64,000 bases of DNA from positions 59,954,001 to 60,018,000 of the forward strand of contig CM059439.1 in the NCBI GenBank assembly GCA_030390025.1, in the 5' to 3' direction. Positions 4,401-28,400 of this stretch are shown here, in pieces (the stretch's first letter is position 1; every line of letters begins with the position of its first letter). This stretch comes from Squalus acanthias (lineage: Eukaryota). The notes below the pieces were generated by a model that was given only the letters and a program-made list of their open reading frames with translations, was not told the DNA's origin and made no database searches. Made by a program: the position numbers and the translations under genes.

Positions 4401-7400
4401 TGTTGTCATCTTTTCATCCGAAAACAAGTTAGAGTCAATTGGTTAGTTGAACTTGGCTTTGGTTTTCCTTCGGATAACCCACCATCTCTCCATAATTAAT
4501 ATTTCTACAAAAAAAAACAGCTTACCATGTACATTGAAGTGGAAATTCTTATCCACTTGCCCAGCGACGTTTGTAGCTTTACAGACATACTGGCCAGTGT
4601 CTGAAACCTACAGTGAAAAAATACACAAAAGACATTGTGGAAATCTTCAGAAGTACAGTTGAAAACAATGTAGTTTTATGGGATTTAATAATCTTCATAA
4701 ATTATTGAAGAGGGTTGCATTAGTAACTAATTTAATTTTTTACAATAAAAAGATTATAAATTAAGTAACAAGCAGTAGGTCACTCCTGACTGTTCAGCTT
4801 TTCAATTGTACTGACATTCCAGAAATATAAATGTAATATTTTTGAGGCTCATCCATATTATTTAAATTTAGTTAATCTGAAAGGACAATTTGAACTATCT
4901 GTTTTTGAAAGGGAGCAACTGAGCAGAGATCTTTTAGAAATTTGTTAAGATATTAAACAGTACAGAGCACTAATTGAAGGTAAACTTTGCAAATTCGGAA
5001 CTCGGGGATAAAGGTTCAAATTTAGAACTGACGTTAGGAAGTTCGTCTTCACACAGATTTATCTTCTTCACACAGATTCATCAACACATGAAACTCATTT
5101 CCAGGAAAGGGTTGGGGTGGAAATCTCCAGAATAATTTACGAGTCATTTGGATTCTGCGATGAGGACTGTAGGCTTTATAGATGGATAAGCAAAGGAGGC
5201 TGCGTGGCCTTCTTTCATCTGTATCTGTCTTGTCAAATTCACCTCTTTTCAAAGTTTCTACAACTGTTTTAAGATATATTCCAAATTCTCTCCCAGCTTA
5301 TGGATTTTCCACCCTGGCTTCCCCGATTCACAAAAATACACTGTAGTTTTGCGTGACTGCCAAAATTAAGAAAAAACATTCTTCCTCTGATAGGGTGCCT
5401 GAAATTCTTCTCAATGAAACCCAGGAGAATGTCTGATTTCTTCTGTTATTAATGGCTCACTAATGAAATTGTGGTCATTCATGTCTTTAAAGGTACAACT
5501 TTTGCAAATCTAGTTTCAGTCGTGGTTTATTAATTATGGAGAGAAGTGGGCAAACTCACATTTTGTTTTGATAAAAGAGGAATTTAAACGATGGTGTCTT
5601 ATTTTAGAAGCTAGTCCTCAAGTTCTACATTATTACAGAGCATGGTGAAACTACCATAACACTTTGAAATGGCTATATCTATGTGACCCTACTGAAGCTG
5701 TGAAGTGGGCAGATTAATGATTGCGAGTGGGAATGGGTTAAACGGGCCTGGTACTTCTGAAGAGGGGGTGCGATGGTCAATAAGTATTCAAATGACTGAA
5801 GGTGTCAAGAGGAGTAATTACCTATGGGACAAAGAACAACCAGACTGTATCCCCCATTTTCTAATGGATTTCCTTTTGATGGATTGAATATAAATTTAGA
5901 CTGAAGAAACAACTGCACTCTGGTGAGAGACAGTGTGACAATGTTGTAATATATGTGGGTAGAACAAATGAAGGACAGAGACACAATGAGCTGCTAGTCC
6001 AAGTGCTTGTTTACTAGGCCAAAGCGAACCGAGCATGCTCATACTAAACCATGTGACAAACCATGTGATAACACATTACACTGCTTTCCCCTTAAAAAAA
6101 TGTACAGTACATATTGCCCTCTGAAATACAACAAAACTATGGTCCCACTTTTCCCAGCATTACATGTACCACATAACAAAAACTCCTGGCTTTTTATTTT
6201 TAAATAAATGAACTACAAATCCAGTTTAATAACAGGTTTGCGGAGCCTTGCTGATCTCCTTACAAAAGGTTGTGGTGTTGAACCAATTTTCGGGCTGTTT
6301 TGTTCTGGTTCTGAACTCAAAGATGATCCTGTTTCTATCTCAGATTTGTTTGAATCTGGTACTTCAGCTTTTGAAGTCTGAACGGAGTCAAACTCATGTA
6401 TGTGTTCATGATCAATTGGTTCAAGATCACGTCTTGGTTCATCTCTAGCAGAGATCATTTGATCCAAATGAACACTTCGGATGTTGTCACCAATCTCAAC
6501 CAAATATCTCTTGGTCCCACCAACCTCTATGGTTCCTACATCCCACTTGTGTGAACTCAACTTTCCAGGGGGACTGAGAACACGAACACACTTGTTTTGA
6601 TTGAAACTGCGTTCTTTCTGATTGTTGTCATAATAACGTTTCTGACTCAACTGTTTCTGTTCAACTCTTGAGGCCAAATTCGGTTGAACAAGACTCAATC
6701 GTGTTCTCAATCTCCCCTTCATCAAGAGTTCTGCTAGGGTATATCCAGTTGTAGTGCGCAGAGTAATTCTGTACTTCAGCAAGAAATTTGCCAAACGTTG
6801 CTTCATGCTGAGTCCTGAACAATCCTGCAACACTTGCTTTTTGAGAGCTTCTTTTACTATTCTGACTGACCATTCGGCTGCTCCCGTTTGAAGCTGAATG
6901 ATATGGTGGAACGAGAATGTGTTTGATACCGTTCCATTTCATGATCTCTTGGAATAGAGCAGAACAGAACTGAGGGCCATTGTCAGAAACAAGCTCTTCA
7001 GGTAAGCCATGACATGCAAAGATAGACCTCAACTCATCTATGGTACGTTCAGTTGTAGTATTTGAACCCATGTGTTTCACTTCAATCCACTTTGAGTGAC
7101 TATCTACAAATACCAGGAAATAATAATTTGCTTTCTCACAGAAGTCTACATGTACTCTCTGAAAAAGTCTACTTGGCCATGAGCAGGGTTATAGTGGAGT
7201 TTTGGGTGATTTGTTTCTGCAATTTTGGCAAACGCTGTATTTGCTGACAAGTGATTCAAGATCACTGTCCAATCCAGGCCAGTAAACAAAGCTTCTTGCA
7301 ATTGATTTCATACTGATGATCCCTGGATGTTCAGTATGAAGTTCGGCCAGAATTCTATCTCTCAAAGAAGTAGGTACCACCACTCTGTTTCCCCACTTGA

Positions 7401-10400
7401 TACAAATGTGCTCACAAGACAATTCAGTATGACGGTTATGGAATGGTTTCAATTGTGTCCAGACACTGATCAGTCCATCCATTCAAGGTGTTTTCATACA
7501 CTCTTTTCGTACTGAGTCCTTTTGAGTCTCATTTGCAATCTCCATTGCATTCACGGGAAAGTCTTTGTCAACTGCACCAAGCGTGAAAATCTCACCTTCA
7601 CTCCCAACACACGAGTCCTCATCTGGCAACCTGGACAAGGCTTCTGCGATTGCGTTTTGCTTTGAAGAGCGATATTCAAATCATGTAGTCATATTGTGAC
7701 AACAACACTGCCCAACGTTGCATTCTTGATGCGGCCATTGCCGGGATGGCAGATTAGGGCCCCAATATTGCTAGGAGCGGTTTGTGATTGGTTATCAGGG
7801 TAAACTTTCTGCCGATCAGGAACTGTTGGAATTTCTTGATTCCAAACGCTATGGCGAGTGCTTCCTTTTCAATTTGCACATAGTTTCTTTCGCTCTTTAT
7901 GAGGGTTCGCGATGCGAACGAGATTGGTTTCTCTTGGCCGTCATCCATTACGTGGCTTATGACAGCTCCCACACCGTAGCTGGAAGCATCACACGCTAAC
8001 TTAAGCTCACGCTCTGTGTCATAGTGCACAAGTAGAGCATCGCTAGAGAGACTTCTCTTACAAGCGTCGTAAGCTTCCTGTTGCGCTTTTGTCCACTTCC
8101 ACTGGACATCCTTCTTGAGGAGCTCGTGCATGGTCGCTAACTCGGGTAAGAAACGTGTGTAGTTCTGGACCATTCCAAGGAAGGATCTTAACTCAGACAC
8201 GTTCTGTGGCTTTGGAGCATTGATGACAGCATCAACCTTTTCCTTAACTGGTTGCAAGCCATTTGCATCAACTTTCAGACCAAGCTGCACAAAAGCACTT
8301 TTGCTCCTTTTCAATTTGACATTGTGGGAATTCAACCTTTGAAGCACTAAATCTAACACTTCTAGATTTTCTTCCTCGCTGCTTGTTGCGATAAGCACAT
8401 CGTCTTGATTGCATAAGCAATTTGGAATTCCTTGCAAAATCTTATCCATCGTAGCCGGGAAGATTTTGAGGGAGGACTTCTCTAGCTCTTCCTCCACCTA
8501 ACTTTTCAACGCATAGGGGACCGGCCTTGCCTTACAATAGACAGGCTTCGCGTTGGACTTGATGCGGATATGCGCGTCATATGCAGTGATGCCCTCATAA
8601 CTGTCTGTGAACATGCTTTTGTACTGTTCAGCATTGTGTCGAGTCACTCCTTTGAAGCATCTACACTGAAGATGTTTTTCCAATCTAGCTTTAACTTTCT
8701 CAACCAGTCTTTGCTCATGAGGGTTGGCCTGTTGTTGCAGTTCACTACAATAATAGGCAGCTTTACTGACTGGCCATTGTGTTGAACTGTACATTCCATT
8801 TGTCCACATGTCTCTAGGATTTCTCCGAAGTAGGTTTTTAACTCTACAGTAAGTGGTATCTGATTAAACTTACTCTCATATGTGCCCTTACTCATGATAG
8901 AGCAGTCCGTCACCATGTCGATACACATATCAATATATTGCTCGTTGATCGAAAGTTTTGTATGGAAGTCTTTCTCACGACTGTTAGCGTTGCCGCTAGT
9001 GGCATAGATACTATAGATGCCTAGTTCTTCAACATCAGGTGTGTTCACTTCAATATTGTAAACTCCTCCCTTTTGTTGTCACTGCTTTGCATTGCCATTA
9101 GAATGGTTCTTACTTCCTGCTTTCGATCTAGCTCTGCAAGCTGTTGAAATATGGCCTTGCTTCTGGCAGTGAAAATACTTCACATTTCTGTATTGGCAGG
9201 ACTGTGGTGAGTGATTTCCACTGCAGCGATAACAATTCACTGAACTGCTCTCACCGACATGCTTTTGACTCGATCTCACAGCTTTAGGTTTGGCGGTGGC
9301 TTTGTGACTGTAGACCTCAGCTGCACTAGTCACTTGAGTTGGACGGAGCTCCCTAGCATTCTTAGACACCATCTCCATAGATAGGGCAATTTTGCATGCT
9401 ATGTCAAACGTTAGGTTCGGAGTGTTCAGTAACTTGGACTGTGTGCACTCATCCACCAGTCCACACACAAACTTATCTCACAACGCACGATCCAACAATG
9501 TGCCGAAGTTACAATGCAAAGACAGGTTCTTAAGAGCTACAATGTACTCACTGATGGTTTCACTTTGTTTTTGGTTTCTGGTACCAAACTTACAGCTCTC
9601 TGCTATTTCTAGAGACTTTGGTCAAAATGTTCCTCGAGTTTCTCGACAATGTCTTCAAACGACACATCCTTCGCGTTCCCTGGTGCAGGTTTGTCAATAT
9701 TCCGTAGACATCTGGCCCGACCTCCGTTAGAAAAATTGCTTTCTTCCGTTCACGAATTACTTTATTTTGAGCTTGAACATTCTCATCTGAACCTTCGGTC
9801 TCAATAATGTTATTGGCCCTAAAAAACATCTCAATCCGTTCCATGTAAGAACTGAATGGTTCGCGCGCCTGGGCATTCATGCCAAGGCTTCCGATGAATC
9901 CCGTAGGCACGGCCATGGGGGCAACACGGTGGCATAGTGGTTAGCACTGGTGCCTCACAGCGCCAGGGACCCGGGTTCGAATCTGGCCTCGGGTGACTGT
10001 CTGTGTGGAGTTTGCACATTCTCCCCGTGTCTGCGTGGGTTTCCTCCGGGTGCTCCGGTTTCCTCCCACAGTCCAAAAATGTGCGGGTTAGGTTGATTTG
10101 GCTATGATAAATTGACCCTTAGTGTTAGGGGGGGATTAAATATGTGGGGTTACGGGGATAGGATGGGATATGTTAGGGGGAATTAAATACGTGGGGTTAC
10201 GGGGATAGGGTGGGATATGTGTTGGTGCAGGCTCGATGGGGATTCTGTGTGAGAAAGCAGGGACAGGGTACTGCATTTGGATGATCAGCCATGATCGTAT
10301 TGAATGGTGGAGCAGGCTCGACGGGCCGAATGGCCTACTCCTGCTCCTAGTTTCTATGTCCCAATCCCGTCAAACAGTGACTCAGCACACTACCTGTGTA

Positions 10401-13400
10401 CATGTGCGAATCAACACGAAGGTGAAGCACAGACAATTCTGCATCAGCATTAACAGTAAAACATCGCAAAAATTAAGTTTAGGTGTCACAAATACACCTT
10501 AAACTTTTCCACATGAACGTTGAACACTGTGTCCTTCCATGATCCCTAAAAATGGCTTTGGGATCCCATTCTCGTCGCCAAAAATGTAACATATGTGGGT
10601 AGAACAAATGAAGGACAGAGACACAATGAGCAGCTAGTCCAAGTGCTTGTTTGCTAGGCCAGAACGAATTGAGCATGCTCATACTAAACCATGTGATAAT
10701 ACATTACAAATGTCAGTCTTTTGATTTTCTGATCGGAACTGTTTGTACAGTGTAGAATTGAATATAAAGTTCCTCCTACTGATTAAATAGAAAATAACAG
10801 CAGCTTCATTGGTAATGACAGTGTCCAGCATCCAGGACTTGGACACATAATCTCGGCTGACACATCAATGCAGTAATGAGAGGGTGCGGCATGATCAGAG
10901 GTGTGGTCCTTTGGGTGAAACGTTAAACTGAGGCTGTTTGTCTGTCTGTTTAGGGAGACATAAAAGATCCTACCACTCGAAGAACAGCAGGGGAGTTCTC
11001 CCAGTGTCCTGGCCAACATTTTTCCCTCAACTGACACCAGCAAAACAAATTAGCTGCTCATTTGTCTCTCTGCTGCTGGTGGGACCTTTTTGTGCATCAA
11101 TTGGTTGCTGCATTGCCTACGAAACAGCTGTGACTTCAGTTCAAAAATAATTCACTGGCTGTGAAATAGTGGGGATTGAGTTTCCTGAGGACATGAAAGG
11201 AGTTATATAAAGGAAGTTTGTTCTTCTTTCAGTGTGAATCTCAGGCATGCAGACCAGGAACGTCTAAGGTTTGATCCCTGTGCTGATCTCTGTGGCAGCA
11301 GAGGTGCTACAATCTTCTCTAGTATCTCTTATCCAGGTTCTCCCTCTCCTAATTGGTACCCAGTGATCCGTGGAAAATACATGCGTGTGGACATCTGGTG
11401 AGGCTCAGTTGTGATGCTCTCTGTAGTTGAATAACCATGGACACACCCTATCTAGGCTCATACATGTAGAAGTGACAATTATTAGGAGCATCAGTAAGTT
11501 ATTCAATCATGGAGAGAATCATAATCACGCACGATCCAGGCTACGGGTGAAGAAAATCTTTGCAACTCCAAGGTTTCTGAAATTTTTCCCCATGAGTGGA
11601 AATACTGTGCAGTATTTAATTTAAACCACAGTAATTTAATCACTGGATTCAACTCCAGCCCAGTCTGATGGGATAGTAGTCTCCTCTGTCTGCTGGCTGG
11701 AAGGGTCCCATTTGAAATGTGTTTTAACACTATCAATCCAGTTCCTGGTGGGTAGAGCTTCACTGCCCCTAATTCAGCACTAATTGACAGGATTTCCCAG
11801 ACTAGCAGGATGTTAGGTGTGGGAAATGGAAAAAAAACACTACAGTGGTGCAGTAGGGGGGGGTGCTCTTCTCAGGTAGAGGTTGAGGCACAGTGCAGAG
11901 GCAGAATAGAGGGAGCTTTGCATTTAACTGTACTAAACCTGACCTGGGAGTGCCTGATGCTGGGCGCCTGAAATGTAAAGTGTTCCATTTCCCAGTGCTA
12001 ATTTGATTTCTGTGTCCTGAAACATAAGTAACATATCCTAGAAAATCTTGTTCTGTGCCTTTTGCTGCTTCTTCTCCCCCTCCCCCTCCCCCACAGATGC
12101 TGGCCAGACAGTCTCAATTTGTGTCTAGACTGAAAGGCATTTACAGTGATAAAAAATGCCTCGTTTTACAATAATAGCATCAATACAGTCGGATTAAACT
12201 CAGCAGGCTGGCACTGGGCAGGAGTGAGAGAGTGGCAGTGAGAAAAGAAGAAATGGCAACACAATGCTGTAAAACTGGCATAGGGGGCTGAGCGCAATGG
12301 ACAGGGACCAGAGCTGCAGGAGACTCCATGTTTGGTAGCAGACAAAGGGGTTGTGTAGAAATTCAACTTGCAATTTTCTAGTAAGTTAACAGTCTTCATT
12401 TAAAAAAAAGAGAGACAGTGGCCCTGAAATTCGCCTCTCCGGCTTGCCGCGGGGGTAAGATCGCACGCGCACTTACCTACCGTGCCTGCCGTTGTGTTTT
12501 GGGCCCACGGGAACTTCAGCTCCTGGGCCTGCTCCAACTGCCGGCGCGCAGTGCTTGCGTGTCCCAGGGGCGTAGTTAGTGCGATGCGTCCCCTGGGATC
12601 ACGTGGGCCATGGAGAGCCAATGGCAGCAGACCATCTTTCATTCATAGATTTGACAGGAAGACCTGTCAAATCTATGAATTGAAATCGGCCCCAAAAGAA
12701 CAGCTAAACTTAAAATAAATTTAAAAAAACCATCACATTTATAAAATAACTATAGTTAAATAAATTAACCACTTTAAACAAAAATTTAAATTTTTGAAAA
12801 ATTAAAATACTTTTTAAAAGTGATAAAAATAAACTCACCTTTCTTTAAAGTATCTAAAAAAGATAAAACTGTTGAAATTTTTTTTAAATTATACTTAATT
12901 AACCACTTACCTTGTTGAAAACAGCTCCTGCGCCTCCTTTTTATAATGTGGAGATGCCGGCGTTGGACTGGGGTGGACAAAAATGAGAAGTCGCACAACA
13001 CCAGGTTATAGTCCAACAGATTTATTTAAAATTACAAGCTTTCGGAGCTGTCGCCCCTTCCTCAGGTAGAGTTACTGTGAGAGTCACAGTAACTCTACCT
13101 GAGGAAGGGGCGACAGCTCCGAAAGCTTGTAATTTTAAATAAATCTGTTGGACTATAACCTGGTGTTGTGCGACTTCTCATTTTTGTCCTTTTTATAAGC
13201 GTAGGTTCTTCAATACTTACCCTCCCGTAGAAACATGAAAAAAACCCTAAGTTTGCTGCGTGCGCGCAGCCTCTACCGCGCATACGGTTCACCTAGGAAC
13301 CGCCCCCTTCACCAGACCGGAAGTTCCGGTTTCCCGTGCATGTGCAGTGCATGCAGGAAACCGGCACTTCGGGACGCCTTACGGGTGAGTACTCACCCGG

Positions 13401-16400
13401 GAAGGGCCGAATTTTTGGCCCAGTATCTATCCAAAATTCTTGTGACTGTAACATGGTATGATTGTAATATTCTGCTACTTCTTCTACTCCTCTCCCACAG
13501 TGCTGGCCAGAGTTCTGACGAAAGGTCATCGACCTGAAATGTTGGCCCAGATTTTGCAGTCAGTCCGACGGCGTACTTTGAGCAACGCCATCATACCACT
13601 TTTGAAATGGACAGCAAGTTCAGGATTTCCGCATGCGCTTGCCCATGCGCTAAATCCCGAACTTGCGATCTGTCAAGTTCCAACTTGACAGATGATCTGC
13701 ACGGACATGGAAATCCTAGTTGCTGGCGCAGAGTTGGGCTAATTGCCCACCAACTGCCCAGCAATTACACCTGATAATGTTACGGCTGGTGCGAGCAGCT
13801 GCAGCAGCCTGTTTGCACAGCGTTAGGGGATAACCTTTTGGGAATCCAAGTATATGTTTAATTTTAAAAGCTTAAACTACAAGCCAGTCTTTCAAACTTA
13901 CCATAAGCCTCCATCAGAGTAGAAAACTCTTCCAAATATTTTCTATAATATACAAAATAGCATTCCTCTGTAGCCTGGTATATATCCTCTATTTTTATTT
14001 TTGGATGTGAATAGAAAGTTGTTGCATTTTACTTAAATGTTGCAAGCATTTACATACAAGTAATTTCCCACAATTAAAATTTGGTTGGCTCCCGAGTGAG
14101 AAACTGGATAAATGAGAGACCTTCTGTTTCCCGATTGGCGCACCGGCCCACATGGTTCCAGGTACGCTTCCGTACGGTGCACCCCTGGGATCTGTGGGCC
14201 ACTACGCTGCCCTCTACTATGCAGCAAGTTCTTGAAGGAGGGTCCCCATCAGGTAAGTTCGCATTCCATTCAGATGCCTATGGCGTAATCCTTAATTACG
14301 TTGCCGACCACAAAATCCAGGCCATTAACTCTTTCTCTCTCCACAGATGCTGCCTGACCTGCTGAGTATTTCCTGCATTTTCTGGTTTTTTTTTTCAGAT
14401 TTCCAGCATTCGCAGTATTTTGCTTTTGTATGATTGTAATATCGTTGTGACACAGGCTTAGACTGCAAGTCCTGTAAGTGGTGTTCTGCTAACACTTTGC
14501 ATCTTCTGCTTTGAAAAGCCTTACCTCTGCACCTGTGATCTCCAACATTTGCCCATTGGCTAGAGTTCGAATGTTGCTGGACTCAGTGACTGGCCGCCCG
14601 TTCTTAAACCAGGTGATGACAGGTGGTGGCACTGCATTTGATTCACACTCCAGTATGGCTGTATTCCCAGTGCGGACACTGATTGTGCGAGGGGAATCCC
14701 CTGCACGGTCCTTAATAGTTGGTGGAACTGTATGAAAAGCAAAGCATTGAAGACTGTAAATGTGACATTAACCACATTGCACCCCAACTCAAAATGGAAA
14801 AGAAAGTACAATGTAAGGACTTCCAGATTGGCTTTCAATCATAGCACTGGTTAAAGCAGATTTACAAAATGACCTTTCACATATGTTGGAAGTAAGCCAT
14901 TTTAGCAGACTTCCAAGAGTGACGTGGAAATAGCAACATACTGCATTTTTCTATTAAGAACCATAGTGGAGGACACCACATATTTTGAAAACAGTAGGAG
15001 AGAAGAAAAGATAAACCGAGAAGTAGTGGTTAAATGATGCCAAACTTTGATTTTAAAAGCCTGTAGGCTGGAAGGAAATACAACAACAACTTCCATTTAT
15101 ATTGGAACTATTAACATAAAAAAAAGTCCCAAGGCACCTCACAGAGGAATATGGAAAGACAGGCACTGAGCCAAAGAAGGGAAGATTAGGAGAGTGGGGT
15201 TTAAGGAGGTTCTTAAAGGAGGAGAGGCAGATAGAAAGGCTGAAAGGTTTAAGGAGACAATTCCAAAATGTGGGGTCTAGGTGGCTGAAAACAGCCATGA
15301 ATGGTGGGGCAATGCACAAGAGGCTAGATTCAGAGGAATATAGAGTTTGGATGGTGGTGGTTGTAGCATTGGTTTGGATTGCAAAAATAGGGAGAAATGA
15401 GGCCACAGCAGACTTTAAGGATGATAATTTTAAATTTGAGGCACTAGGGGACTGGAAGCCAATGTAGGTTAACAAGGATGAGCGATGAGTGAGGTGAACC
15501 TGTTTTTGGATAGGATACAGATGAGCTGAAGGTTACAGAGGGTGGAGGATGGCCAGGAGAGCACTGAATATATCAAGTCTGAAGATTATAAAGGCTGCGT
15601 ATTCTCTCTGACCCTGTATTCTCTCCATCACGAAGACCACCTACTTCCACCTTCGTAACATCGCCTGTCTCTGTCCTAAATCTCAGGCAGATGGGCAGAG
15701 GAGAGGAGATGGAAGAAGTAGAGTGCAACAGAAATTCAAGACTAGGAATGGAGGGGAATTGGGGGAGGTTTGGCTTGGTGAGCAAAGGAAGGGGAAAAGC
15801 AGCAGAGGCAGCTGAATTGAATGGTCTTCATCTTGGTGATAAAAAAATCCATGAGCTCCTTACACTTGTTGTTAGAGGTGAAGGTGGATAGGGAAGAGGG
15901 GAGTGGTTTAAGAGGTGGTTAGTAGTACAGAAAAGGAGTCTGGGGTTGTCTTTGCTCTCAAGGATGATCCTAGAGTAGTGGGCCATTTTGGTCGAGGAGA
16001 GTGAGGCCTGGAAGAACTTAATATGGTAAAGCCAGATTTGGCAACGGATGGCTCAGCTAGATTGTGTAGCAGTTGCATTGATGTTTGCACTTTTTGGACT
16101 TGGAGGGAGGATGACACAAGTGGAATAACTGGTATGGGAGATTGGGAAGGTTTGCGGGGGACAAGGACATCGAAGATGGAGGTGGGGGACTGGTTGAGCA
16201 ATTCGACAGCTGAAGAGAGATTATGGCAAATTGAAAACCAAAAGCTGGGCAGTTGGAGTTAAGAGTGTGCAGTTGTATGTTACTTGCAGCAGGCGCAGAA
16301 GGAAGTGGGGTTGCAAGAGGCTCTTCTGGGCAAGCGGATAGGTGAGGGATACAAGAAAGTGGTTGGAATTTGTCTTGTCAGAGATCAAGATGGTGGGAGT

Positions 16401-19400
16401 AGATAAAGGAAGGCAAGGAAATTTAGTCTTGATGTAATGGGAAAGAATGAGTTAGTAGAGAATTTTGATTTATTGATTGACTAAAATATACAATAATGAA
16501 GCAAGAGTTTCAAAAAAGTGCATCTGCATCAAAACGACTGCCCTCCATGTGCCCACTTGCTGCTACAGTTTGGGTGGGGTGGGGGGCGGGCCAGACATGG
16601 AAATGGTTGACTGTAATACTAAGAACTTTAAAATAAATGTTTCCTTCCCAGGGCAGAATGGTTTTAACTGTTCTGAGAAATAATTTACATTTTGACTAAT
16701 TGCATGGCTTTGCAAAGGGCCAAATACTAAGGTTGTTGCTGCATTCTCATTAAATGTGACAATTTTACATCTTGAAAATAACTCACAGGTACAATTATAT
16801 CAAAACACTGACAGGTGCTAATACTATAGGTATATTTCTCCACTAGGGTGGTTTACAACAGGTCGCATGGGTGGGAAAAAGTGCTATTTAAAGCACAAAG
16901 CAATCTGCAGGAATATTAATACAGTTCTTTCCTTTACTCAATTGGGAGGATTCTGTTAGTTATTAACAGATGGATTGCTCATGGTACTACTTTCTAAAGT
17001 AAACCATATTTCATGTTCATAGTGGAGGCACAAACATGAAAATTAAAAATCATAGGCTATACATGCACGACGTCCCGAAATGTGGTTTTTGTGAGTATCA
17101 TTTCCAACTGAGGGTACAGATCATAGAATCACCCCCAGTATATTTATAGCTTTTCTCATTTAGAATATGTATTTCCAGCTAACTCATGTCAACAATCTGT
17201 ATGTGTTTATTTAAATTGGGACTGGCCTCCTGACGAGAGTTGGACTTGAGCCAGTCGCATGCAGATTGTCAACAGTTTGTAAAAAGAGCAGCTCTAACTT
17301 CACTTCATTACCCTGGCTCCCACAGTCAGGTGGTCTACATTGTATTAGAGGGTGATATTAAAACCATAAGTTGCTTTTTCTGCTATCCAAACCTGGCTTG
17401 TTGGATATTTGTCATTACACTGCTTGTGTGGGCCCTAAAGTGTGGAAATCAAAATCTAATTTAAAAACTGTTGATATCCCAATGGCTCAGTGACCTTACT
17501 TAATGGTTTAAAAATTCTTCCTTTTTTTCCTATCTATCTATTGGGCAGAAAAATATAAATCTTAACTCACCCAAGTTTCCACTCCTTGGCTGCAATTTTG
17601 CTGGCGCTCAGCGGACCCGATTGGTGGCGGGTCAGCTATGAAATTTAAAATGATTGACAGCGAGTCAGGAACCCGCTGTCAAAACACACCCACCTGCATT
17701 TCCCGATGTCTGGTCTGCCAGCACTGAGCAGACCCGACAGGCAGCGGCGGGGGACCCAATTCAAATCATTCGTGGCTTGTTTACAGCCACTTAACAATGC
17801 TTTTTTTCGAAGCTTTTTAACTTTCACAGGTCTCCCAGAGGTTTCCCACTGTGCCTAGACCTCGTCAGTGAAGCTGAGGCGGGAGGTCAGTGGCCATTGA
17901 ATCAGCTGATGAGTTGACAGCTTTAAATGTCAACTCTAAGCTCCCAGCTGATTCAGATATCTTCCCGTAAGCACCAGCATCTCTAAACTGCATTTCCACA
18001 ACAGATTCAAGATGCTGCAAGTCTTTACACAAGTCTTCATGCAGTCTGACCTCATTACCTCTCCCACCATTGACAGATCGCTTCTGTCATCTCTACTTCA
18101 CCTGCCATCTATTCCATCAGTATGGGTGCACTTTCTACTCTCTCACCTTGTTCCTCAGAATCTGACCACGATCAGCCCCAACACCAGCATCACCAGGCAC
18201 ACCAGCAGCACCAACAACCACACCAACCGGTCACAGGGCATCAGCACCCGACCACATTGCTGCCCGGGACGCCAGGGATGGCCTCACCATGGCCAGATTT
18301 ACTTCAGGTTGGCACCACCCCACACCAACACCATAAAGCATCCCTACAATGCTGTGTTTCTTACACAGCCTGTTAATCTGCAAGACACAGAGTTTCTGAT
18401 GCTGTGTTAGAATCATTAGAATTTTACAGCATAGGAGGAGGCCATTCGATCTATCATGCCTGTGTCTGCTCTCTGAAAGAGCTACCCCTCTTAGTTCACC
18501 ACTGTTTCTAGTACAGATTTTTATGTCCCACCAATTCTCTGTGTAAATAAAACTCTCCTATCCTTTTTCTTTTGGTGATGATCTTAAATATATACCCTCT
18601 AGTTACCACCTTACTGACCAGTGGAAATAGATTGTTCCAATTTACTTAATCAAAGCATCTCAAAACATCTCTATCAGATCTCTTCTTAGTCTTTGTTCTA
18701 ATAAAAAGAACCCCTTTATCTCTAGTCTTTAGTCAACTAAAGCCTCTCATTTCTGGTATTATCTTAGTGTATTTCATCTGCAACATGTCCATCGTCTTGT
18801 CACCTGTCCTAAAGTATAATCCCCAAAACTGGACACATTATCCTGGTTGCAGCCGAACCAATGATACGTATAGGTATAGCATTACCTTATTTGTTAGCGT
18901 GTGAGGCAATAATTCTGCCTGTTCCATGAAGTCCAAGGGTCAATTACAGAAACTGAAACTGATTGAAAGCATCTGAAATTGAACAGTGAACTGAGGCTGA
19001 CTAGAAATGCAGTCCCCTTCTGACAATAAAGCCTTTTATGTTACAGTTGTTAAACTCAAGACATTAACGACTGACTTTCCTCTTCACAGTGGTGCTCTGT
19101 CGGAGTGAGACTTCCATCAGCCCCTCCACTACTGCTGCAACCCCAACCAATTTCCTAGATTGTTGTTCATGACTATTACATGGTGGGAACATTGCAACAG
19201 GAGTAGACCGTTCAGCCCCCTGACCCTGTCAATTATGTCATTGCTGGTCTGTACCTCAATTCCATTTACCTGCCTTGATACCTTACCCAACAAAAATCTA
19301 TTGATCTCGGTCTTGAAAATTTCAATTAACCCAGCATCCACAGTCTTTTGGGCAAGAGAGTTCCAGATTTCCAGTGCTTCCTGATTTCACTCCAAAATGG

Positions 19401-22400
19401 TCTAGCTGTAATATTAAGATTATGCCCCCTTGTTCTGGATTCCCCCAACAGAGGAAATAGTTTCAGAACGATTCCTATTCAAAAGATTAGAATGCAGTTT
19501 TGCATTTGGTGCTTATCTTTTAACATTATATTTCAGAGCTCCAGAAGTAGTTTATAGTCAGTGTACACCACTTTAAGAATAATCACACAATACATAGTCA
19601 TTTTGTTCTCAAGTTCCCAGGTATAACTTGGGTGGGCAGACCAAAAATTGGGTGGGGGCCTGTCGTACCAGGTCTGTACCCATTTTGGCTCTTATAATGA
19701 TTGTCTGGCACTATGTCTGCTGGATGCCAGAAGCACCTGCCTAAAAATACAGGCAAAAAAAGACAATCAAAGCCCATCTATGCTCATCCCATCCATTTGA
19801 CATACAACCTTCCCCAGGCAAGCATAATGTCTTGGGGTGGTGAAAAGAAACCCTGGCCAATTTCAGGAAAAATCTCTGGGAAGTTTCTCTCCGATTCTCT
19901 AAGATAATCAAGCAAGCTCCAGAAGGCCATTACCCACAACAAATCAAACTAACTTCCCATTCCCTCAAAACCATATGTCCCAGTTTCCTTAAGAACATAG
20001 GACTATACAGAACCAGGAACAACTATCCCGATCCAAGAGGTTGGTCCGAAGGGTCACAGACTTCTTATCCTGATTTACCTCTCATACCCCTCAATAGCTC
20101 TGTACAGCAAAAATGTATCCATCACCCTCTTAAAATTTATAACATATTCCACTTCCTCCCTGGGTAGGCTGTTCCACATAATTACTACCTTCTTTGTCTT
20201 TTCCTGTCTAAATTTAAATCCGCATATCCCTGTCGTACAGATTGTATAAATATTGATCATTCTTGGATCCAGTTTACCTATTCCCTTGAAGATCTTAAAT
20301 ATCTCAATAAGGTCACTTCTAAGTGGAAACACCACCTTTTTCTGATGAAATTATTCCTACCAGAGTAGTTTTCCTTTCCTCATAGCTCAGCCCAATCCCA
20401 CGTATGAACTTTAATTTCCCTTTTTGTGCTCCCTCCAAGGCATCTCCACTGCACACAATACTCAAGGTATACTGGTAACAATATGTTAGGTAAGCCCAGT
20501 GACAGCACTGCCACAGGCATCTGTGCTATGTGAGATTCCTTTCGTTTATACAGAAACTTTCAAAATTAATTTTCTGCAAGTTTCCAATTGAATTGGATCA
20601 GAAAATTACAATACCAAATAAATTCTTGTAAAAAAAATTTAACTATTCTTAGATCTGCCCTGAAAGAGTTTCACTGAAGCAATAATTCCAAACACAAAGC
20701 TTAACTCTCCCTTACCACGATGATATGTACCTTGCTTATTCCATTTTGCCCTCAACTGTTATAAGCTGTATTCTTTATTTGCTGTGCCGTTATCACATGT
20801 TTCTCATGAAAAGTCTATAAATTATTGCTGCGTTATCTTTCATCTCTTTGGTCCCTACACACCTAATTCTGACTGTAATGATATATACGAACCATAAACT
20901 GTGAGGTAAATCTGCTTTTCAGCTTCTCCTGCTTGATTCATGGCTAAGCATGCGTATTTTCCTCCATCTGACAGCTTAGCCCGAGGCAGCTGGACAGTCC
21001 GGCCTCCTGGGAGACAAAAAGGTTTCAGAATCAGAAACAGATTCCACTATTCATCAAACTGAAGGACACTGCTGGACAAATTCTGTAGCTACTATACATA
21101 ATAGGAGAGAAACACTTTTTACACAAAGCCAGCATCTATAAATTCTGAAAAGTAAAAGTGCAGAACAGTGTTACCTGTGCACTAAAGTATGTTTGTTTGG
21201 ACATTGATACCGACTTCTGCTTAGTATCTTTACATTTTTAAGAGCTATTGTTGTCAGCTAATACCCCGGGCCCACATTTGCTTAGTTGCTGCACCCAATC
21301 TCTTTACTCTTTTTGAGTAATTCGTTTTGCATCTTGCCTAGTTAGTTTACCATATGCGAGATTCTTGAGCTCCTCAGATCATGGAAATGTTATGCCAAGA
21401 AGGCAGCTGGGATGTATAATTTAGGATATAAAATTAGACCATTTTTCCCTGGTTTTGTTTTATTTATCTTTGAGGAGCAGTGAGAAACTTGCAGAACTTT
21501 TCCCAGAGGAGATTTAATGGGATGAATGAAGTTCACGATAAAGTGAAGTGCACAAGGTATGTGGGGGGGGGGGAATGGGCTGGATGAGCAGAATGGCCTT
21601 TTTTCGTTCCTTGTTTTCCTAAGTTCTGACTATCAATAAAAATGATTTGATCTCACTTGTTGATCTTAAATTTTATTTTGGTTTAGAGACAAGTGCAAAT
21701 GTGGGCTGGGTTGTCCTTATTTTTGTAATATACCCTCTTTCTAAGGCTTATCCCCTGCCCCTGCATTTGAGCAATTCTCAGAATTAAAAAAAAATGCCGA
21801 CCCACATTTTCACTCATTTCTAAATTAAAATATTTGAGATCAGAAAGTTATTAAAATAAAATCCAAATAAAAAAGCAGTTACTCACACCCTATAATGTAA
21901 ACCCGTTTAAAGCACAAGAAGATAGATCTATCTCTTAAAATCTGACATTACTTCACAAATGTTCAGCTGTGTCTGAGTATTGCTGTGAAGTGAAGGATGG
22001 AAAAACCAGCAGGTAAAATCAATTTTAACATAGTGGTGCTGCCTTTGAAGGCTGATTTTTGTCCTCTGCATTTCCACTCCTTCCTCTCTGTTCCCCACCC
22101 CAATGCAATACATAAGTGAGATGGTCTGTAACTAATTACTGTCACTCTTACACTGCCTAACAAGGGATCTCTAATACAACAGCAGGTTACTCTGTCCATA
22201 AACAGAAACATGTCTTGGGCAAAGAAATCCCAACTCCAGATATCTGTCATTTCCAGCAGACAACACAAGCTGCAATGTGCAACACCACCAGGATTTTGTG
22301 GCCGGGCAATGATGGTTGCAATCCCACCGGGAACCAGCCATGCATGGGTGATGGAAACTGGGTCAGAGTTCTAGCGGTGTCAGAGGGGCGTGTGAAAGTT

Positions 22401-25400
22401 CTGAGCCGTGCCCTGGAACCCTGCTACTGGGAGGACAATCCCGGCCGTGAATTCATCAGACACATACCCAACACCACAGCAGCATTAGATTTGTAGTTAC
22501 CATTGGTTACCAGAAAATGCAAATGATTGGTCACATTTGAAGAACAGGAATGGTGCATTTGGCTTTGAACCTCTCTGTGGACTCCAAACTTGCTGCTATT
22601 GCTTTCAGTGCAGTCATTAATTACATGGAATTCTGTTTACAGCTGGTTTATTATTCAGTTACTAAATACAGAAAAACAGCTGTAAAAATTTATAGGAATG
22701 AGACAAAGCTACCAGGATCTCTGGAACTGAGCTGCCACAGTAACAAGGACATTTTAAGATCGAGGACACATGACCGTCTGCATTCGTCAACGATAGCTGA
22801 GTTTTTAGCAGTAATCTGCTCCCTACCAAAATGTCAGCCAATGTAATGCAGTTTCTGTGAAGCAACACAATTTGCCTATAGCCTCCATAGCAATTTCCCC
22901 TTTTGTTTGTAGTTTTGTTTTGTTTTGTTTCCTTTTTTTTGGCCATTATTTTTTGCCATCTCCCTCCGGTTATTTACCATTGTACATTCTTCATTGTGGA
23001 GCACAATATAGTTTTGGCTGTGGTTTCCTGTAAGTGCCCAGAATTTTGCTCCTCAACAGAAAGGAGCAAACAGCAGCTTACTTTCTCTCAGTATCTATGG
23101 CCACTGTTGCTGGGAGGCCTATCCACGGTGAAGTTTGCAATCAATTAGATGGGGCAGCAAAGTGTAACGCCAACCCTCCTCACAATGTGGTTCAATGTAT
23201 AAGATGGATGTCTCCACAACATAGTACAGAACACCTTAGGCAATCGACAGTGTTTATGAGTAAACTCGGGCAGAGTTAGGAACAGAGGGAAAAAAACAGC
23301 AGGGATTGGGGTGGAAATGACCCCACAAGTATTATGACTCCCATCCAAAATGTTAGATATGAGCAATGATGTACAGTGGAATATCATTGGGCCAGCCCCT
23401 GCTCCTTCCATTATATGTAGACTCGATCCCAGGTTTATTAGCCGTCCAAATATGTGAACTCCCAACTTCTGTTCAGAAAACACTGGCTCGATCCCTGAAA
23501 GTAAGTGTTTGGACTTTATCATTTTCAAGTAGGGCTGAGTTTCCCTCGAATAATATTAGATTATATATAAACACCAAAGATTGTGTGTACTGTACAGTTG
23601 TGAAGTGAGCCTAATTTGCACAGTGTGTTGAGTTGAGTGGTAGACGTTACAATGAGTGGTGAGTGCGTTGCGCTGATACACAGCTACCATCAAGACCAAT
23701 CAAGTTGTCTGTCAAGGGAAGATTCGAAAGCAAACTGCACAAAATGAACCAGTTTCTTACCAGGCAAGATAAGAATGTTGGTGTTGGATTGTAGAGGTTT
23801 CCCGTCCTTAAGCCAACTGAGGCTGGGTGGTGGAAAAGCCGTGGCCTCACACGTCAAAGAGATGAAGTTGCTTATCACAACAGTCATGTTCTCTGGGTTG
23901 ATGCCCATGATACTGGGAGGCACTGTGAAACACAAAATGAATTTTAATTTTATTTTTAAAACACTTTTTTAAAAAAAAAGGGGGTTCTCTATGACAGCAA
24001 TAAACAATATACCTCAGATCAGAATGCAACAGTTAGGGGCTAATTTAGTCTTTTCTTATTTTGTTGGTTATATGATTTTCATGGCATTAGTAGTAATGTA
24101 GAATATCTTAAGAGTAGATTTCTTGGGGCTGCTGATTTTCCCAACGTGACACATGAAATTGTTGTCTAGTAATAACAAAGTCACTCACCATGGACATTTA
24201 AGTTGAAGTATTTTTCTGTGTTTCCAGCTACATTTTCTGCAACACAAACATATCTGCCTGTATCTGACACTTGAGCATTGAGGACCTGTTAGTGACAGTA
24301 AGAATGGAATCTTAATAACTTTTACAATGACACAGAAATGCCCAGTCATAAAATGTAAACGTTGTTTTGCTTTACAAGTTTCTTTATATTGTAGGCAGTA
24401 ACATTAACATTCAGCAATGTGTATATAAAATTACAATTTAACATTTGATATTCTGTCCAACATTTTTTCCCTTCAATTTTCTCCCCTCCCGTTGGGAAGG
24501 TGCTGACTCATGCTGGGGTATGTTTCCAAGGCACTGTGTACCTAGACGGTGAATGCTAGCAGGCTAATTGATTGCGAAGGTCACTTTGGCCAAGTATGAT
24601 CCTGTCATGACCTGGTGTCCACATACACACTCTATCCAACAGGAGTTACAGGCTGTAAACCTGGCTTTGTTTTTTCCTCCCTAGCCCAGGGGCGCGCAGG
24701 CCAATTATGGAACCCTACTGCTGCTCCAGTGGCAAAGAACTAAGCCAGCAGACTTGGCCTATCCCGGTCTGTAGGACTCAGTTCCACACTGGAGAGTGCA
24801 CTCACCCATTGAGCCTTTGGGAGAGGAGTCTGTCCAGTTTTATCTGAACTTTTAATTGTTCTCTTTATTTGTAAAAGCACTTATGTACAGTTGCTGTACT
24901 CCTTCACAAATAGACCTTGTAATCCATTTTACTGACTCATTATCAATAGTCTCTGTGTTTACTGCTCTGTTCCAGTTGACTTTCAGTAAGAGAATAGGTG
25001 AAATGATGAAATAAAATTAAATATCCTTTCATGAAAACAAATGAAACATCTTTCAAACTGAGAAAAGTAATTTCAGGATCATCCATAGATTTAAATGTTT
25101 AATGTTTTTTAAATGTTGTACTGTTTTCAGTTGGTGAGCCAAGCCAACTGCCAATTGCTAGCAACAGGCCAAGCTATTGTACTGGACATTTCTTTGAAAG
25201 TACACTGTGTGCTTTCTGCAACCTCTTCAACAGCCTGTTTTTATGAAGTATTTAAAACATAGTGAAATATTTAGCTAGAAGTAGTGTTGGATGAGTTCTT
25301 GATTATGAATGAACCAACTTAACAATGCCCCATTAAACATAAGTGAGAAGTCGCACAACACCAGGTTATAGTCCAACAGTTTTATTTGAAATCACAAGCT

Positions 25401-28400
25401 TTCGGAGCGCTGCTCCTTCATCAGGTGAAGGAGCAACCGCTCCGAAAGCTTGTGATTTCAAATAAAACTGTTGGACTATAACCTGGTGTTGTGCGACTTC
25501 TCACTTTTGTCCACCCCAGTCCAACACCGGCATCTCCGCATCATGGCCATTAAACATAAACATTGATAATCTTGGGGTCCACACCTGAAGAGTTCGTCCA
25601 TTGGACAGGAGGTTGTGGGTGTTGTCTGCTCTCAACTGATGCCCATCCTTCAGCCAGGAAATTTTGGGAGTGGGAGTTCCGCTGACCATACAGTCCAACA
25701 TGGCAGTCTTGTTTATCAGCACAATGACTTCTTCTGGTAAATCAGTATCAGCCCCTTTAATAGTAGGAGGAGCTAGATGGCAAAGTACAATGCAGTTAAG
25801 AATTGTTCAGCCATATCCTTTTCAACTTTTTGTCTGTAATACCAAGCTACGGCAATGAAAAATCATCAGTTTGCCCTGCTTTACGTAATAAATCAGTTGC
25901 TCTCAGTTCCAAGACAGCAGTTCAATTGACATCATAATCTATGCGATTGAGCAGGGCTAACCAAATTCTAGTTACGCAATTAGAATTTCTAATAACCAAT
26001 AAGATAGCAGGATTTTGGTTACCAGCAGTGAGTTTTGTTTAATTCATTACAAAGTACAGTTTATTCAGCTACATAATTTGTGTTGATAATTGTGACCAAG
26101 GGTGGGGGGGCGGGGTGGGGGGGAGAGAGAGATTCAGCTAATGTTTTTAAAGATACGTAGTTCATAAACTTGAGCATTATTGTGCCATGAAATTCAATGG
26201 TTGGTTGCGCCCATGATACTCACTCATGACTCTCAGTTCATACTGAATAGAATCCTCGCCTGCTTCATTCATAGCCACGCATGTATACCTCCCAGCATCC
26301 TCTGTCTGTGCTCTGGGAATTTGTAGCACGCGTCCTCCTAATGGATAATGAGCACAAATTGATATATCGGAATGCTTAGGCTTTAAGGACATATTTCTTT
26401 TCAATCTAATACTAAAATACTAAAAGAAATTCAAATTATATCATAAGTCGCGACATCAACTCATATTTTATAAATACTGGTGGATCTCCTGTGGCACTGC
26501 TCACAGGTATTCCGGAGCACATTTGTGATATTTAGCTGCTAACCCCCTCACCCCTCTGCCCCCGATCCCTTTAAGGCCCTGTTTTGTGGTTGCATTTGGG
26601 GAAAGAGGTCTAAATAGGTCCCGAGGTAAATCAGAAACTAATTATCGTTGAAAGTTTCTCAAGATTGGCAAGTGCTTGGTTCTTCTCCTTAGGGAGAGAC
26701 AAGGTTATCTCAAAGTCAGGAAAAAGACAACTGAACATGAACATGACTCGCTTTCTTCCTTTTCTAAGATTGTGCAGCTGTGATATGTTGGTGTTTTACA
26801 CAAAATATGACATCTGGAGTGTAAAGCATACACTCAAAACAATGATCTTAATAAAATGAAGCCAATGTTAATGACAGTTAAAAGTAGAACTGAAATTACA
26901 TTGAATTAAGACTGCAAGATATCAGTACAGAATAACATTGTCACATATTTCCTTACAGATGGTGCATCGAAGTTCTACCTGCCATGAGGATGCACCCTTG
27001 GCTAATTTTACAAGGACAGGAGTTTTTTTGCATTGTTTGGCTGACTCCCTGGCCTACACTGAGGTGTCCACCTGGAGCAGGGGACAGAGATTGGCTGCAG
27101 CAGTCCTCAGAGGCCTGATGCAGCGTGCCATTGTCAGAGGCCTCTTTGCCAACTGCAGAATTTTGAAAACACTTTTATATATAAAAGCGCTATAGTGTCC
27201 TTTCTGGCCTGGGAAGAATTAAGTATCCCTGCTGCCACCCACAGCAATGCTGGACACCAGGCACCAACAGGCAGCCCCTGTGTCCACTGTTGCTATGGCA
27301 CAAATGATGGAAATTATTTCAAGTGACATATTTCTGTCATTTTCAGACCATTACAATGCAGCCACTTGAAGTGTTGGGGGACATATTGCACTGTCACTTC
27401 TGGTGGGTGAACTCGGACGTGGCAGAGGAGCGACCCCAGAGAATTTCCTGCTCAAGTTACGTCTGGGGGCTGCCATAACTTGTACAGAAAATCTAGGCCA
27501 GGATGTCCAAACGATGGCCTGCACTCTGGATCAAGGCCACGTACATGGAGTGCAGCTTGCAGCATCGACAATAAGGACAGGAGCGTGCCAGCTTAAAATT
27601 GGGCGAGAGGGGAACAGTGCCAGCATGGAATTGGTAGGGTTGGGGGGGGGGGGGATGAAAACAACAGTACTATTGTGAAATTCGGGGGAGGGAATGAAAA
27701 TAACAGTGTAAGCATAAAATTGGAGAGGGATAGTTGAGTGCCATCATGAAATTAGAGGGGGGACAAAGAGGAGAGACACAATTTGAACTGGAGAGACGGC
27801 AGAGAAAGAGTACCAGCTTGAACTGGAGGAGGAAAAGGGAGAAGAGAATCAGCTTAAATTGAGAGGAAGGGGGAAGATGAGTGCCAACTTGAAGTGGGAG
27901 GTGGCAGGAGCAGAGAGGATGCAAAAAGGGCAAGAAATTCTTGGCCATCCTAAGGAGATATGCCGTTATACTGAAAACAAAACAATAAGCAGGCATGTTA
28001 GTAGGGTTGAAAAAGAAAGGGAAAGAAAGATACTCCAATCACAAAAGAAGTTAATGAAAGAAAGAAGAATGAACTTGCATTTACATATCACCTTTCATGA
28101 CCTCAAGACGCCCTAAAGCGCTTCACAGCCATTGAAGTACTTTTGAAGTGTAGTCACTGTTGTAATGCAGGGAAATACAGTAGCCAATTTGCAAACAGCA
28201 AGATCGCACAAACAGCAATTAAATAAATGAGCTTATGATATGTTTTAGTGATTTTGGTTACAAGATATATATTGACTAGGATACAGAGTCGAAAGGCCTA
28301 TAAAGTGCTTAATAGGAAACGTTTAGATGATATAAAAGGTCAGCTCATCTCAAAGAACAAAATAATGTGCAAGTATCCAAGGATGATAAAAAAAGGGAGC

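What the first reader, a model, noticed from the sequence alone, without database searches (positions are those of the whole stretch)
12947..25546. Hammerhead-ribozyme-bearing Penelope mini-insertions in HMCN1 introns, with stem covariation
Seen: three motifs with the hammerhead core CUGANGA...GAAA. (a) 13096-13131, present on both strands: UAC-CUGAGGA-A-GGGGC/GCUCC-GAAA-GCUU-GUA. (b) 25392-25428, minus strand: UCAC-CUGAUGA-A-GGAGC/GCUCC-GAAA-GCUU-GUGA. (c) 13510-13543 joined to 14327-14331: GAGUU-CUGACGA-A-AGGUC/GACCU-GAAA-UGUU-AACUC. Stem I covaries (UAC/GUA, CAC/GUG, GAGUU/AACUC) and stem II pairing is kept across two families. Each motif lies in a short insertion with a 12-15 bp TSD. Known: Penelope-like elements carry minimal type I hammerheads with palindromic stem III that are thought to cleave as dimers. 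Inference: these are non-autonomous, ribozyme-containing retro-units, and two motifs lie on the HMCN1 pre-mRNA strand.
Basis: partly seen in the sequence, partly recalled or inferred. Interest (0 to 1): 0.72.

Follow-up and report, generated by a model that had tools for sequence, protein, structure and literature searches.

The report
Stump-sized Penelope retrotransposon insertions in introns
These are real but ordinary short stumps of two very common Penelope-type jumping genes, each carrying that group's already known mini-ribozyme motif, which here is predicted to be locked in a hairpin or broken and so is unlikely to cut the host gene's RNA.

Summary
The three hammerhead motifs and their 12, 13 and 15-bp target duplications are at the stated places. 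Insertion B is absent at the same site in three runs of related organisms. The motifs belong to the repeat ends (pLTRs) of two Neptune-type Penelope-like retrotransposon families with 16,000-37,000 motif hits per pattern. A full-length copy carries an 892-aa RT/endonuclease frame. Unit A is 100% identical over 136 nt to ORF-bearing copies and lies at the short end of a continuous size series; its exact junction recurs once. B's junction recurs at 792 places on mixed subfamily backgrounds, best read as a hotspot. So these are likely truncation products, not a dedicated non-autonomous family. Stem I covariation is real but is one subfamily-level change. On the pre-mRNA strand both motifs are predicted to be masked by an upstream antisense arm (39-74 kcal/mol). 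The ribozyme type and head-to-head layout are published (PMC4209133, PMC3846280), and this scan found the pattern before on other DNA. Of residual interest: unlike arms, tails on the shorter arm, and nearby sibling insertions sharing a unique junction.

The parts
12947..13186 (.). Insertion A: head-to-head pair of 5'-truncated pLTR ends of Neptune-type family AB; perfect 106-bp arms 12975-13080 / 13084-13189
   Evidence: (I11); arm 100% identical over 136 nt to ORF-bearing copies L146, L148, L166
12947..12974 (-). One-sided 'tail' of A; in the full-length copy L033 this stretch runs straight into the ORF's first ATG
13033..13068 (-). Minimal hammerhead, copy on the host pre-mRNA strand (3-bp stem I, extra A after A9, 5-bp stem II, AGCU stem III palindrome); predicted masked
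13096..13131 (+). Minimal hammerhead, mirror copy
12935..12946 (+). 12-bp target duplication of A, left copy (right copy 13187-13198; its first 3 nt also fit the element end)
12420..13421 (.). Element bounded by GGCC-ended imperfect inverted termini into which A inserted; likely a DNA-transposon remnant (inferred from the termini)
13471..14427 (+). Insertion C: one-armed, tail-bearing pLTR stump of a second Neptune-type family, about 174 bp net; its first 42 nt match none of the family loci fetched
   Evidence: flanking parts present in contigs of two related organisms
13510..13543 (+). 5' part of hammerhead (c), antisense to the host gene; stem I 3' strand at 14327-14331
13544..14326 (.). 783-bp later insert with GGCC-ended imperfect inverted termini, splitting motif (c) at the predicted cleavage site
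   Evidence: joints 13541-13543 to 14325-14335 in family contigs
13456..13470 (+). 15-bp target duplication of C, left copy (right copy 14428-14442)
25343..25546 (.). Insertion B: head-to-head pLTR ends of family AB, 204 bp; the - arm has the whole hammerhead (3-nt loop II), the + arm starts inside the core (4-nt loop) and carries the tail; 38 nt into the intron
   Evidence: empty site in runs X16, X17, X19
25392..25428 (-). Minimal hammerhead (b) on the pre-mRNA strand, 4-bp stem I; predicted masked
25330..25342 (+). 13-bp target duplication of B, left copy (right copy 25547-25559)
   Evidence: 25330-25546 absent in single bridging contigs of three runs
14525..14724 (-). Hemicentin Ig exon upstream of the intron (14524 to 4608) that holds A and C
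25585..25772 (-). Hemicentin Ig exon upstream of the intron (25584 to 24286) that holds B
   Evidence: a contig of run X1 (RNA is a guess) covers 25583-25772 only

Best explanation
A, B and C are short, 5'-truncated pieces of the repeat ends (pLTRs) of two abundant Penelope-like retrotransposon families, each likely built anew when the element's own protein inserted it, and their hammerhead motifs are passengers that are predicted not to fold in the host pre-mRNA. Shown: pLTR identity, ORF-bearing parents, target duplications, an empty orthologous site for B, a tail on one side only, and a continuum of sizes. Inferred mechanism: the RT/endonuclease nicks both target strands about 12-13 bp apart. 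Each nick primes reverse transcription on pLTR RNA, one at the tail end and one about 30 nt inside. Both cDNAs stop early, very often at the 5' edge of the hammerhead, and are joined head to head through 0-5 nt of microhomology. The hammerhead shape is under selection in the master elements (inferred from where subfamilies vary), not in these stumps.
For: Full-length copy L033: two direct pLTR hammerheads 3,046 bp apart around an open 892-aa frame with DKG, YIDD, CxxxxCxxC linker and a GIY-YIG-type motif pair; RVT_1 E=2.3e-8. Family C has its own such ORF directly upstream in 7 of 30 loci. A's subfamily: 580 hits, ORF matches in 16 of 30 loci fetched (some are two views of one insertion), arm spacing 35-3,264 bp. 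Head-to-head pairs: tail on exactly one arm in 93 of 97, on both in 0; duplication of 12-14 bp in 46 of 61. Of 27 simple B-junction copies the tail is on the shorter arm in 19 (2 read by eye) and on the longer in 8; a single snap-back cDNA could give only the latter. Arms differ in loop II length in 14 of 88 pairs, against about 1% arm-to-arm substitution. Folding: stem I and II pair probabilities 0.0 in context; forcing the hammerhead costs 74 (A) and 40 (B) kcal/mol, 69 and 39 in nascent prefixes. PMC11167929 (parts 1-2 of 4 read) reports that a Penelope protein cleaves and extends both strands, starts RT at two sites bounding the tail, and does not need hammerhead catalysis in vitro.
Against: B's junction occurs at 792 places, which an amplified master could also give. 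Three junctions tested are each confined to one nearby pair of insertions, and A shares its junction with one copy on another contig: some palindromes are copied or converted rather than built anew. Unlike arms are far fewer than random pairing of templates predicts (14 against 40 of 88) and could come from later gene conversion; two cases are short patches in an otherwise uniform background (L035, L216). Pfam gave no GIY-YIG hit at E<=0.1, so the endonuclease motif is read by eye. Folding is a prediction for naked RNA at equilibrium. My samples come from pattern hits on the start of contig C1 and are not random.
Confidence: 0.8

Rival explanations
1. The 200-240-bp palindromes are a non-autonomous family (SINE- or retrozyme-like) that is itself transcribed and re-inserted by the Penelope protein.
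For: 792 copies of B's junction; identical junctions at independent sites with their own duplications (L132/L133, L134/L135, L190/L198, A/L100). PMC3846280 (passages) reports mobilisation in trans by pLTRs alone; bioRxiv 10.64898/2026.07.22.740005 (parts 1-2 of 5 read) derives retrozymes from pLTRs.
Against: B's junction sits on a 4-5-nt microhomology and is found on 3/3, 4/4 and 3/4 loop backgrounds and both downstream variants. 42 different junctions among 51. The other shared junctions have only 2-3 copies each. No element has tails at both ends (0 of 97), yet one junction carries the tail on either side. The units are inverted, not tandem as retrozymes are.
Confidence: 0.1
2. The palindromes arise by snap-back self-priming of one cDNA or template (the published reading), and later breakage and gene conversion at the palindrome centre account for unlike arms, shorter-arm tails and shared junctions.
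For: PMC3846280 (passages) reads junction palindromes as self-priming. Young pairs have near-identical arms (A 106/106; 98-99% over 0.6-1.1 kb). Repair from a nearby copy would explain the local sibling pairs, including the one with opposite tails (L132/L133), and the patch-like cases.
Against: It needs remodelling in most B-junction copies (19 of 27 with the tail on the shorter arm), and young A-subfamily pairs also differ freely in which arm is longer.
Confidence: 0.25
3. The two sense hammerheads cleave or regulate the hemicentin pre-mRNA, as monomers or as an A-B pair.
For: Both are intact and on the transcribed strand; A and B share the AGCU palindrome; isolated motifs can form stems I and II; B lies 38 nt from a splice donor.
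Against: Each motif is preceded by its own antisense arm. They lie 12 kb apart in different introns. B is missing in relatives, so there is no conservation. Minimal monomers showed no cleavage and dimers little (PMC4209133, parts 1-2 of 4 read); the anole motif needed the element's protein (PMC11167929).
Confidence: 0.03

Closest known systems
Minimal type I hammerheads (min-HHR) of metazoan Penelope-like elements, including fish Neptune, Poseidon and Xena (Cervera and de la Pena 2014, PMC4209133)
   Same: Short stem I, extra nucleotide between A9 and 10.1, palindromic 15.2-16.2, position in the pLTR, thousands of solo motifs from truncated copies, and pairs on opposite strands 100-700 bp apart are all described there.
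   Different: Counts here are higher (16,000-37,000 per pattern against 2,000-9,000 quoted). Family C has R-U instead of G-C at 10.1-11.1. My one search for shark Penelope hammerheads listed only a review (listing only).
Endonuclease-bearing PLE insertions with inverted 5' pLTR and one-sided 30-40-bp tail (Arkhipova 2013, PMC3846280; Craig 2021, PMC8557442)
   Same: Head-to-head inverted pLTR, tail at one end, target duplication, strong 5' truncation, microhomology junctions; the CX2-5CxxC linker marks Neptune/Nematis.
   Different: Here both arms can shrink to about 100 bp, with starts piled at the 5' edge of the hammerhead; duplications are 12-14 bp against 8-10 bp in the rotifer examples.
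Poseidon of Anolis, PAc (Frangieh 2024, PMC11167929)
   Same: Tail bounded by two start points, hammerhead near the ORF start, both strands usable as primers.
   Different: PAc is Penelope/Poseidon clade and its ORF starts inside the hammerhead; in family AB the first ATG follows the tail.
Non-LTR retrozymes (bioRxiv 10.64898/2026.07.22.740005)
   Same: Short, non-coding, hammerhead-bearing, related to pLTRs.
   Different: Retrozymes are head-to-tail tandem arrays with a hammerhead in every unit; these are inverted pairs or solo arms with target duplications.

Membership tests
EN+ Penelope-like element (parent families) | Single ORF with RT followed by GIY-YIG endonuclease | tested here: met
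   L033 892 aa, RVT_1 E=2.3e-8; endonuclease motif pair read by eye, no Pfam hit; family C likewise
EN+ Penelope-like element (parent families) | pLTRs in partial tandem or inverted arrangement, with the ORF start at the pLTR end | tested here: met
   Two direct pLTRs 3,046 bp apart, ATG right after the tail; inverted pairs
EN+ Penelope-like element (parent families) | Optional 30-40-bp tail on one end; target duplication | tested here: met
   93 of 97 pairs with one tail; 46 of 61 with 12-14-bp duplication; empty site for B
Neptune/Nematis clades | CX2-5CxxC linker between RT and endonuclease | tested here: met
   Present in both families; feature as stated in PMC8557442 passages
Neptune clade (against Nematis) | Placement in an RT tree with reference elements | not testable with these tools
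   No reference set held; Neptune is preferred because it is the clade reported from fishes (PMC4209133)
min-HHR | Core CUGANGA/GAAA, stems I and II, extra nt 9.1, palindromic stem III, NUH triplet | tested here: met
   Family AB: 9.1=A in 229 of 229, AGCU in 226 of 229; variation sits at N7, loop II, position 17 and stem I pair 3
min-HHR | G10.1-C11.1 pair | tested here: inconclusive
   Met in AB (224 of 229); not met in C (A-U 19, G-U 17 of 37)
min-HHR | Self-cleavage as a dimer or with protein help | not testable with these tools
   Needs an assay; no raw RNA reads were offered
Non-autonomous (SINE/MITE-like) family | Many copies of one fixed unit descending from a master | tested here: not met
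   A: 1 other copy with the same junction; 42 junction types in 51; B's junction on mixed backgrounds, though no genome-wide tree was built
Non-LTR retrozyme | Head-to-tail tandem units, each with a hammerhead | tested here: not met
   Units are inverted pairs or solo

The most novel reading that the evidence does not exclude
The stumps are a fossil record of the unsolved Penelope integration step: a protein dimer primes both target strands on two RNA copies held together by the hammerhead's palindromic stem III, both RTs stall at the 5' edge of the paired hammerheads, and the cDNAs are joined there. The minimal hammerhead would then act mainly as an RNA-pairing signal. Support: 39 of 51 shorter arms start within 20-41 nt upstream of the cleavage site, 14 of 88 pairs have unlike arms, and 19 of 27 tails are on the shorter arm. 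The nearby sibling insertions with a shared unique junction (3 of 3 tested) would record local re-use or local repair of such intermediates.
Probability: 0.15. Interest if true: 0.65.

Novelty: new member of a known kind. Interest (0 to 1): 0.22.

Why it matters
As a locus it matters little: three of tens of thousands of stumps, with no sign of a role for the host gene. As a family it is a large, young dataset for an open question. The papers read call the role of hammerheads in endonuclease-bearing Penelope elements unclear and the later integration steps unvalidated (PMC8557442, PMC11167929). The one-sided tails, unlike arms, junction pile-up at the hammerhead and local siblings give testable predictions for two-ended priming.

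Tried and rejected
Rfam scan: no hammerhead model matched; the 6 hits were miRNA hairpin models below their gathering scores. A fixed-spacer pattern had the wrong spacer and gave 0 hits. A DNA search of the own genome returned nothing because common words are skipped. The first arm tally (n=232) was not de-duplicated and is replaced. In-vivo cleavage footprint: arms starting exactly at the predicted cleavage site are 10 of the first 100 of 3,502 hits (about 350; 95% range 172-617), against 35 of the first 100 of 471 hits at a control site 3 nt away (about 165; 121-213) (classified by eye). That is about two-fold with overlapping ranges, one control only, and partly explained by a CAC microhomology, so it is not taken as evidence. 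Two junctions suspected of marking amplified non-autonomous lineages had only 2 and 3 copies. The dimer energies used an ill-nested structure and are not used. RNA evidence: only assembled contigs were offered, so ends, editing and splicing could not be tested. No bridging contig was shown for A's site. The homologue search for the exon gave one unnamed whale protein at 61%, so the gene name rests on architecture. Literature searches for non-autonomous palindromic Neptune elements (0 papers) and for Penelope with twin priming (3 listings, none evidently on this, listings only) found no prior description in the held library, which lacks most subscription papers and Repbase. Supplements were not read; those of PMC4209133 may hold shark motifs.
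Full report
OBSERVATION. A is a perfect 106-bp inverted repeat with a 28-bp extension on one side. B has one whole hammerhead on the - strand and a partner arm that starts inside the core. C is one-armed and is split at the predicted cleavage site by a 783-bp later insert with inverted termini. In single contigs of three runs from related organisms (two studies), 25329 joins directly to 25547, so B plus one duplication copy is absent there. Parts of C are present at the same site in two of those runs, so C is likely older; A's site was not bridged.

HOST GENE. Ig-domain exons lie on the - strand, followed downstream by further Ig, six TSP1 and EGF exons. That this architecture is HMCN1 rather than HMCN2 is recalled knowledge; the homologue search gave only an unnamed whale protein. 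A and C share the intron 14524-4608, and B lies 38 nt into the intron 25584-24286. A itself landed inside another inverted-terminus element, 12420-13421.

WHAT THE UNITS ARE. Tight patterns give 20,162 (4-nt loop II) and 16,386 (3-nt loop) hits for the A/B family and 37,366 for the C family, with 0 for reversed controls. Longer copies continue upstream into a Penelope-type ORF. L033 is full length: two direct pLTRs 3,046 bp apart and an open 892-aa frame whose ATG follows the tail, with DKG, YIDD, a CxxxxCxxC linker and a GIY-YIG-type motif pair (RVT_1 above cut-off, no endonuclease Pfam hit). Family C has a second ORF of the same build, about 30-40% identical, directly upstream in 7 of 30 loci (two opposite-strand hits not counted). 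The linker marks Neptune/Nematis (PMC8557442, passages).

NON-AUTONOMOUS FAMILY OR STUMPS? A's exact subfamily has 580 hits, with inverted pairs spaced 35-3,264 bp among the first 100 listed, and A's tail arm is 100% identical over 136 nt to ORF-bearing copies. A's junction pattern is found at 3 places including itself, and exactly at one other. B's junction is found at 792, but it lies on a 4-5-nt microhomology and occurs on several subfamily backgrounds. The 3-nt-loop variant also occurs in ORF-bearing copies (2 of 30 loci). In that subfamily, 51 resolved junctions give 42 coordinate sets (long or unresolved copies left out). The units are therefore best read as truncation products of autonomous elements.

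COVARIATION. In 229 distinct A/B arms, stem I pair 3 is C-G 155, U-A 53, U-G 8 and unpaired 13; stem II pair 3 is A-U 183 or G-U 45; N7 and loop II vary; 9.1 is always A. A large subfamily has C instead of U at position 17, which keeps an NUH triplet (about 87 of the first 100 hits). Variation thus falls where a hammerhead tolerates it. But this is one compensatory event between subfamilies, counted many times through descent. Between the two families the stems and the stem III palindrome (AGCU, ACGU) differ yet pair, which shows a conserved shape. Family C departs from the canonical G10.1-C11.1 pair in 36 of 37 arms.

ACTION ON THE PRE-mRNA. On the transcribed strand each sense motif is preceded by its antisense arm. 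Predicted pairing of stems I and II is 0.0, and forcing the hammerhead costs 74 and 40 kcal/mol, 69 and 39 in nascent prefixes. Motif (c) is antisense and broken. Published minimal monomers showed no cleavage (PMC4209133), and the anole motif needed protein (PMC11167929). Cleavage of hemicentin RNA is unlikely.

MECHANISM. Of 97 head-to-head pairs, 93 have the tail on one arm, 4 on none and 0 on both; 46 of 61 have a 12-14-bp duplication. Among 27 simple B-junction copies the tail is on the shorter arm in 19 (4 copies with extra duplications dropped from 31). In 14 of 88 pairs the arms differ in loop II length, against about 1% substitution. Simple snap-back of one cDNA predicts identical arms and a tail on the longer arm only. 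Priming from both nicks, at the two RT start sites reported for the anole element (PMC11167929), fits better. This is inference. Later gene conversion is a live rival: unlike arms are fewer than random pairing predicts (40), two cases are short patches, and three junctions tested are each confined to a nearby pair of independent insertions 0.10, 0.53 and 0.91 Mb apart (one has a third copy in a local duplication). These pairs were noticed because both members lay in my sample of the first 18 Mb of C1, but no copy turned up in the rest of the genome. A test for arms starting at the cleavage site gave only a two-fold, inconclusive excess.

COMPARISON AND VERDICT. Minimal hammerheads in fish Neptune elements, opposite-strand pairs 100-700 bp apart, inverted pLTRs and one-sided tails are all published (PMC4209133, parts 1-2 of 4 read; PMC3846280 and PMC8557442, passages). 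This scan has 94 earlier findings on the pattern in at least 13 genomes; they agree but are not independent evidence, and a search of them for local siblings found none. Verdict: a real, well-observed, new member of a known kind; low interest for the locus, modest for the family-level mechanistic clues.

Noticed in passing
G000:C1:2938290 and 3041878 (L132, L133); 3433148 and 3966991 (L134, L135); 8770426 and 9678696 (L190, L198): Pairs of independent palindromic insertions, each with its own flanks, share a junction found nowhere else in the genome and lie 0.10-0.91 Mb apart; L132/L133 carry the tail on opposite arms. Local re-mobilisation or repair of the palindrome centre from a nearby copy; unexplained.
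   Followed up: partly
loci (L102-L131, L187-L244): In the 3-nt-loop subfamily, arm starts pile up at the 5' edge of the hammerhead (39 of 51 shorter arms within 20-41 nt upstream of the cleavage site); the younger A subfamily shows a much broader spread.
   Followed up: partly
L035:6070-6139 and L216:568-622: One arm carries the 3-nt-loop stem II inside an otherwise A-type arm: a short patch of template switching or gene conversion.
   Followed up: partly
one search hits, genome-wide: About 3,000 family AB arms (87 of the first 100 of 3,502) have C instead of U at hammerhead position 17, keeping an NUH triplet.
   Followed up: partly
family C loci L039-L068, just upstream of the hammerhead: A polypyrimidine tract and CAG end at the stem I 5' strand, like the splice acceptor described at helix I of Drosophila virilis Penelope (PMC4209133); the A subfamily has a CAG about 10 nt upstream.
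   Followed up: no
L109 and L117; L020 and L091: Independent Penelope insertions, with different junctions, at the same position of other repeats: possible target-site preference.
   Followed up: no
window 61314-61471: A further, older head-to-head remnant of family C without an intact hammerhead.
   Followed up: no
window 12420-13421, 13544-14326, 37690-37758, 54345-54413: Several GGCC-ended elements with imperfect inverted termini, probably DNA-transposon remnants; one hosts A and one splits C.
   Followed up: partly
window 35132-35153 (+): A weak fifth hammerhead-core match with a 3-bp stem II.
   Followed up: no
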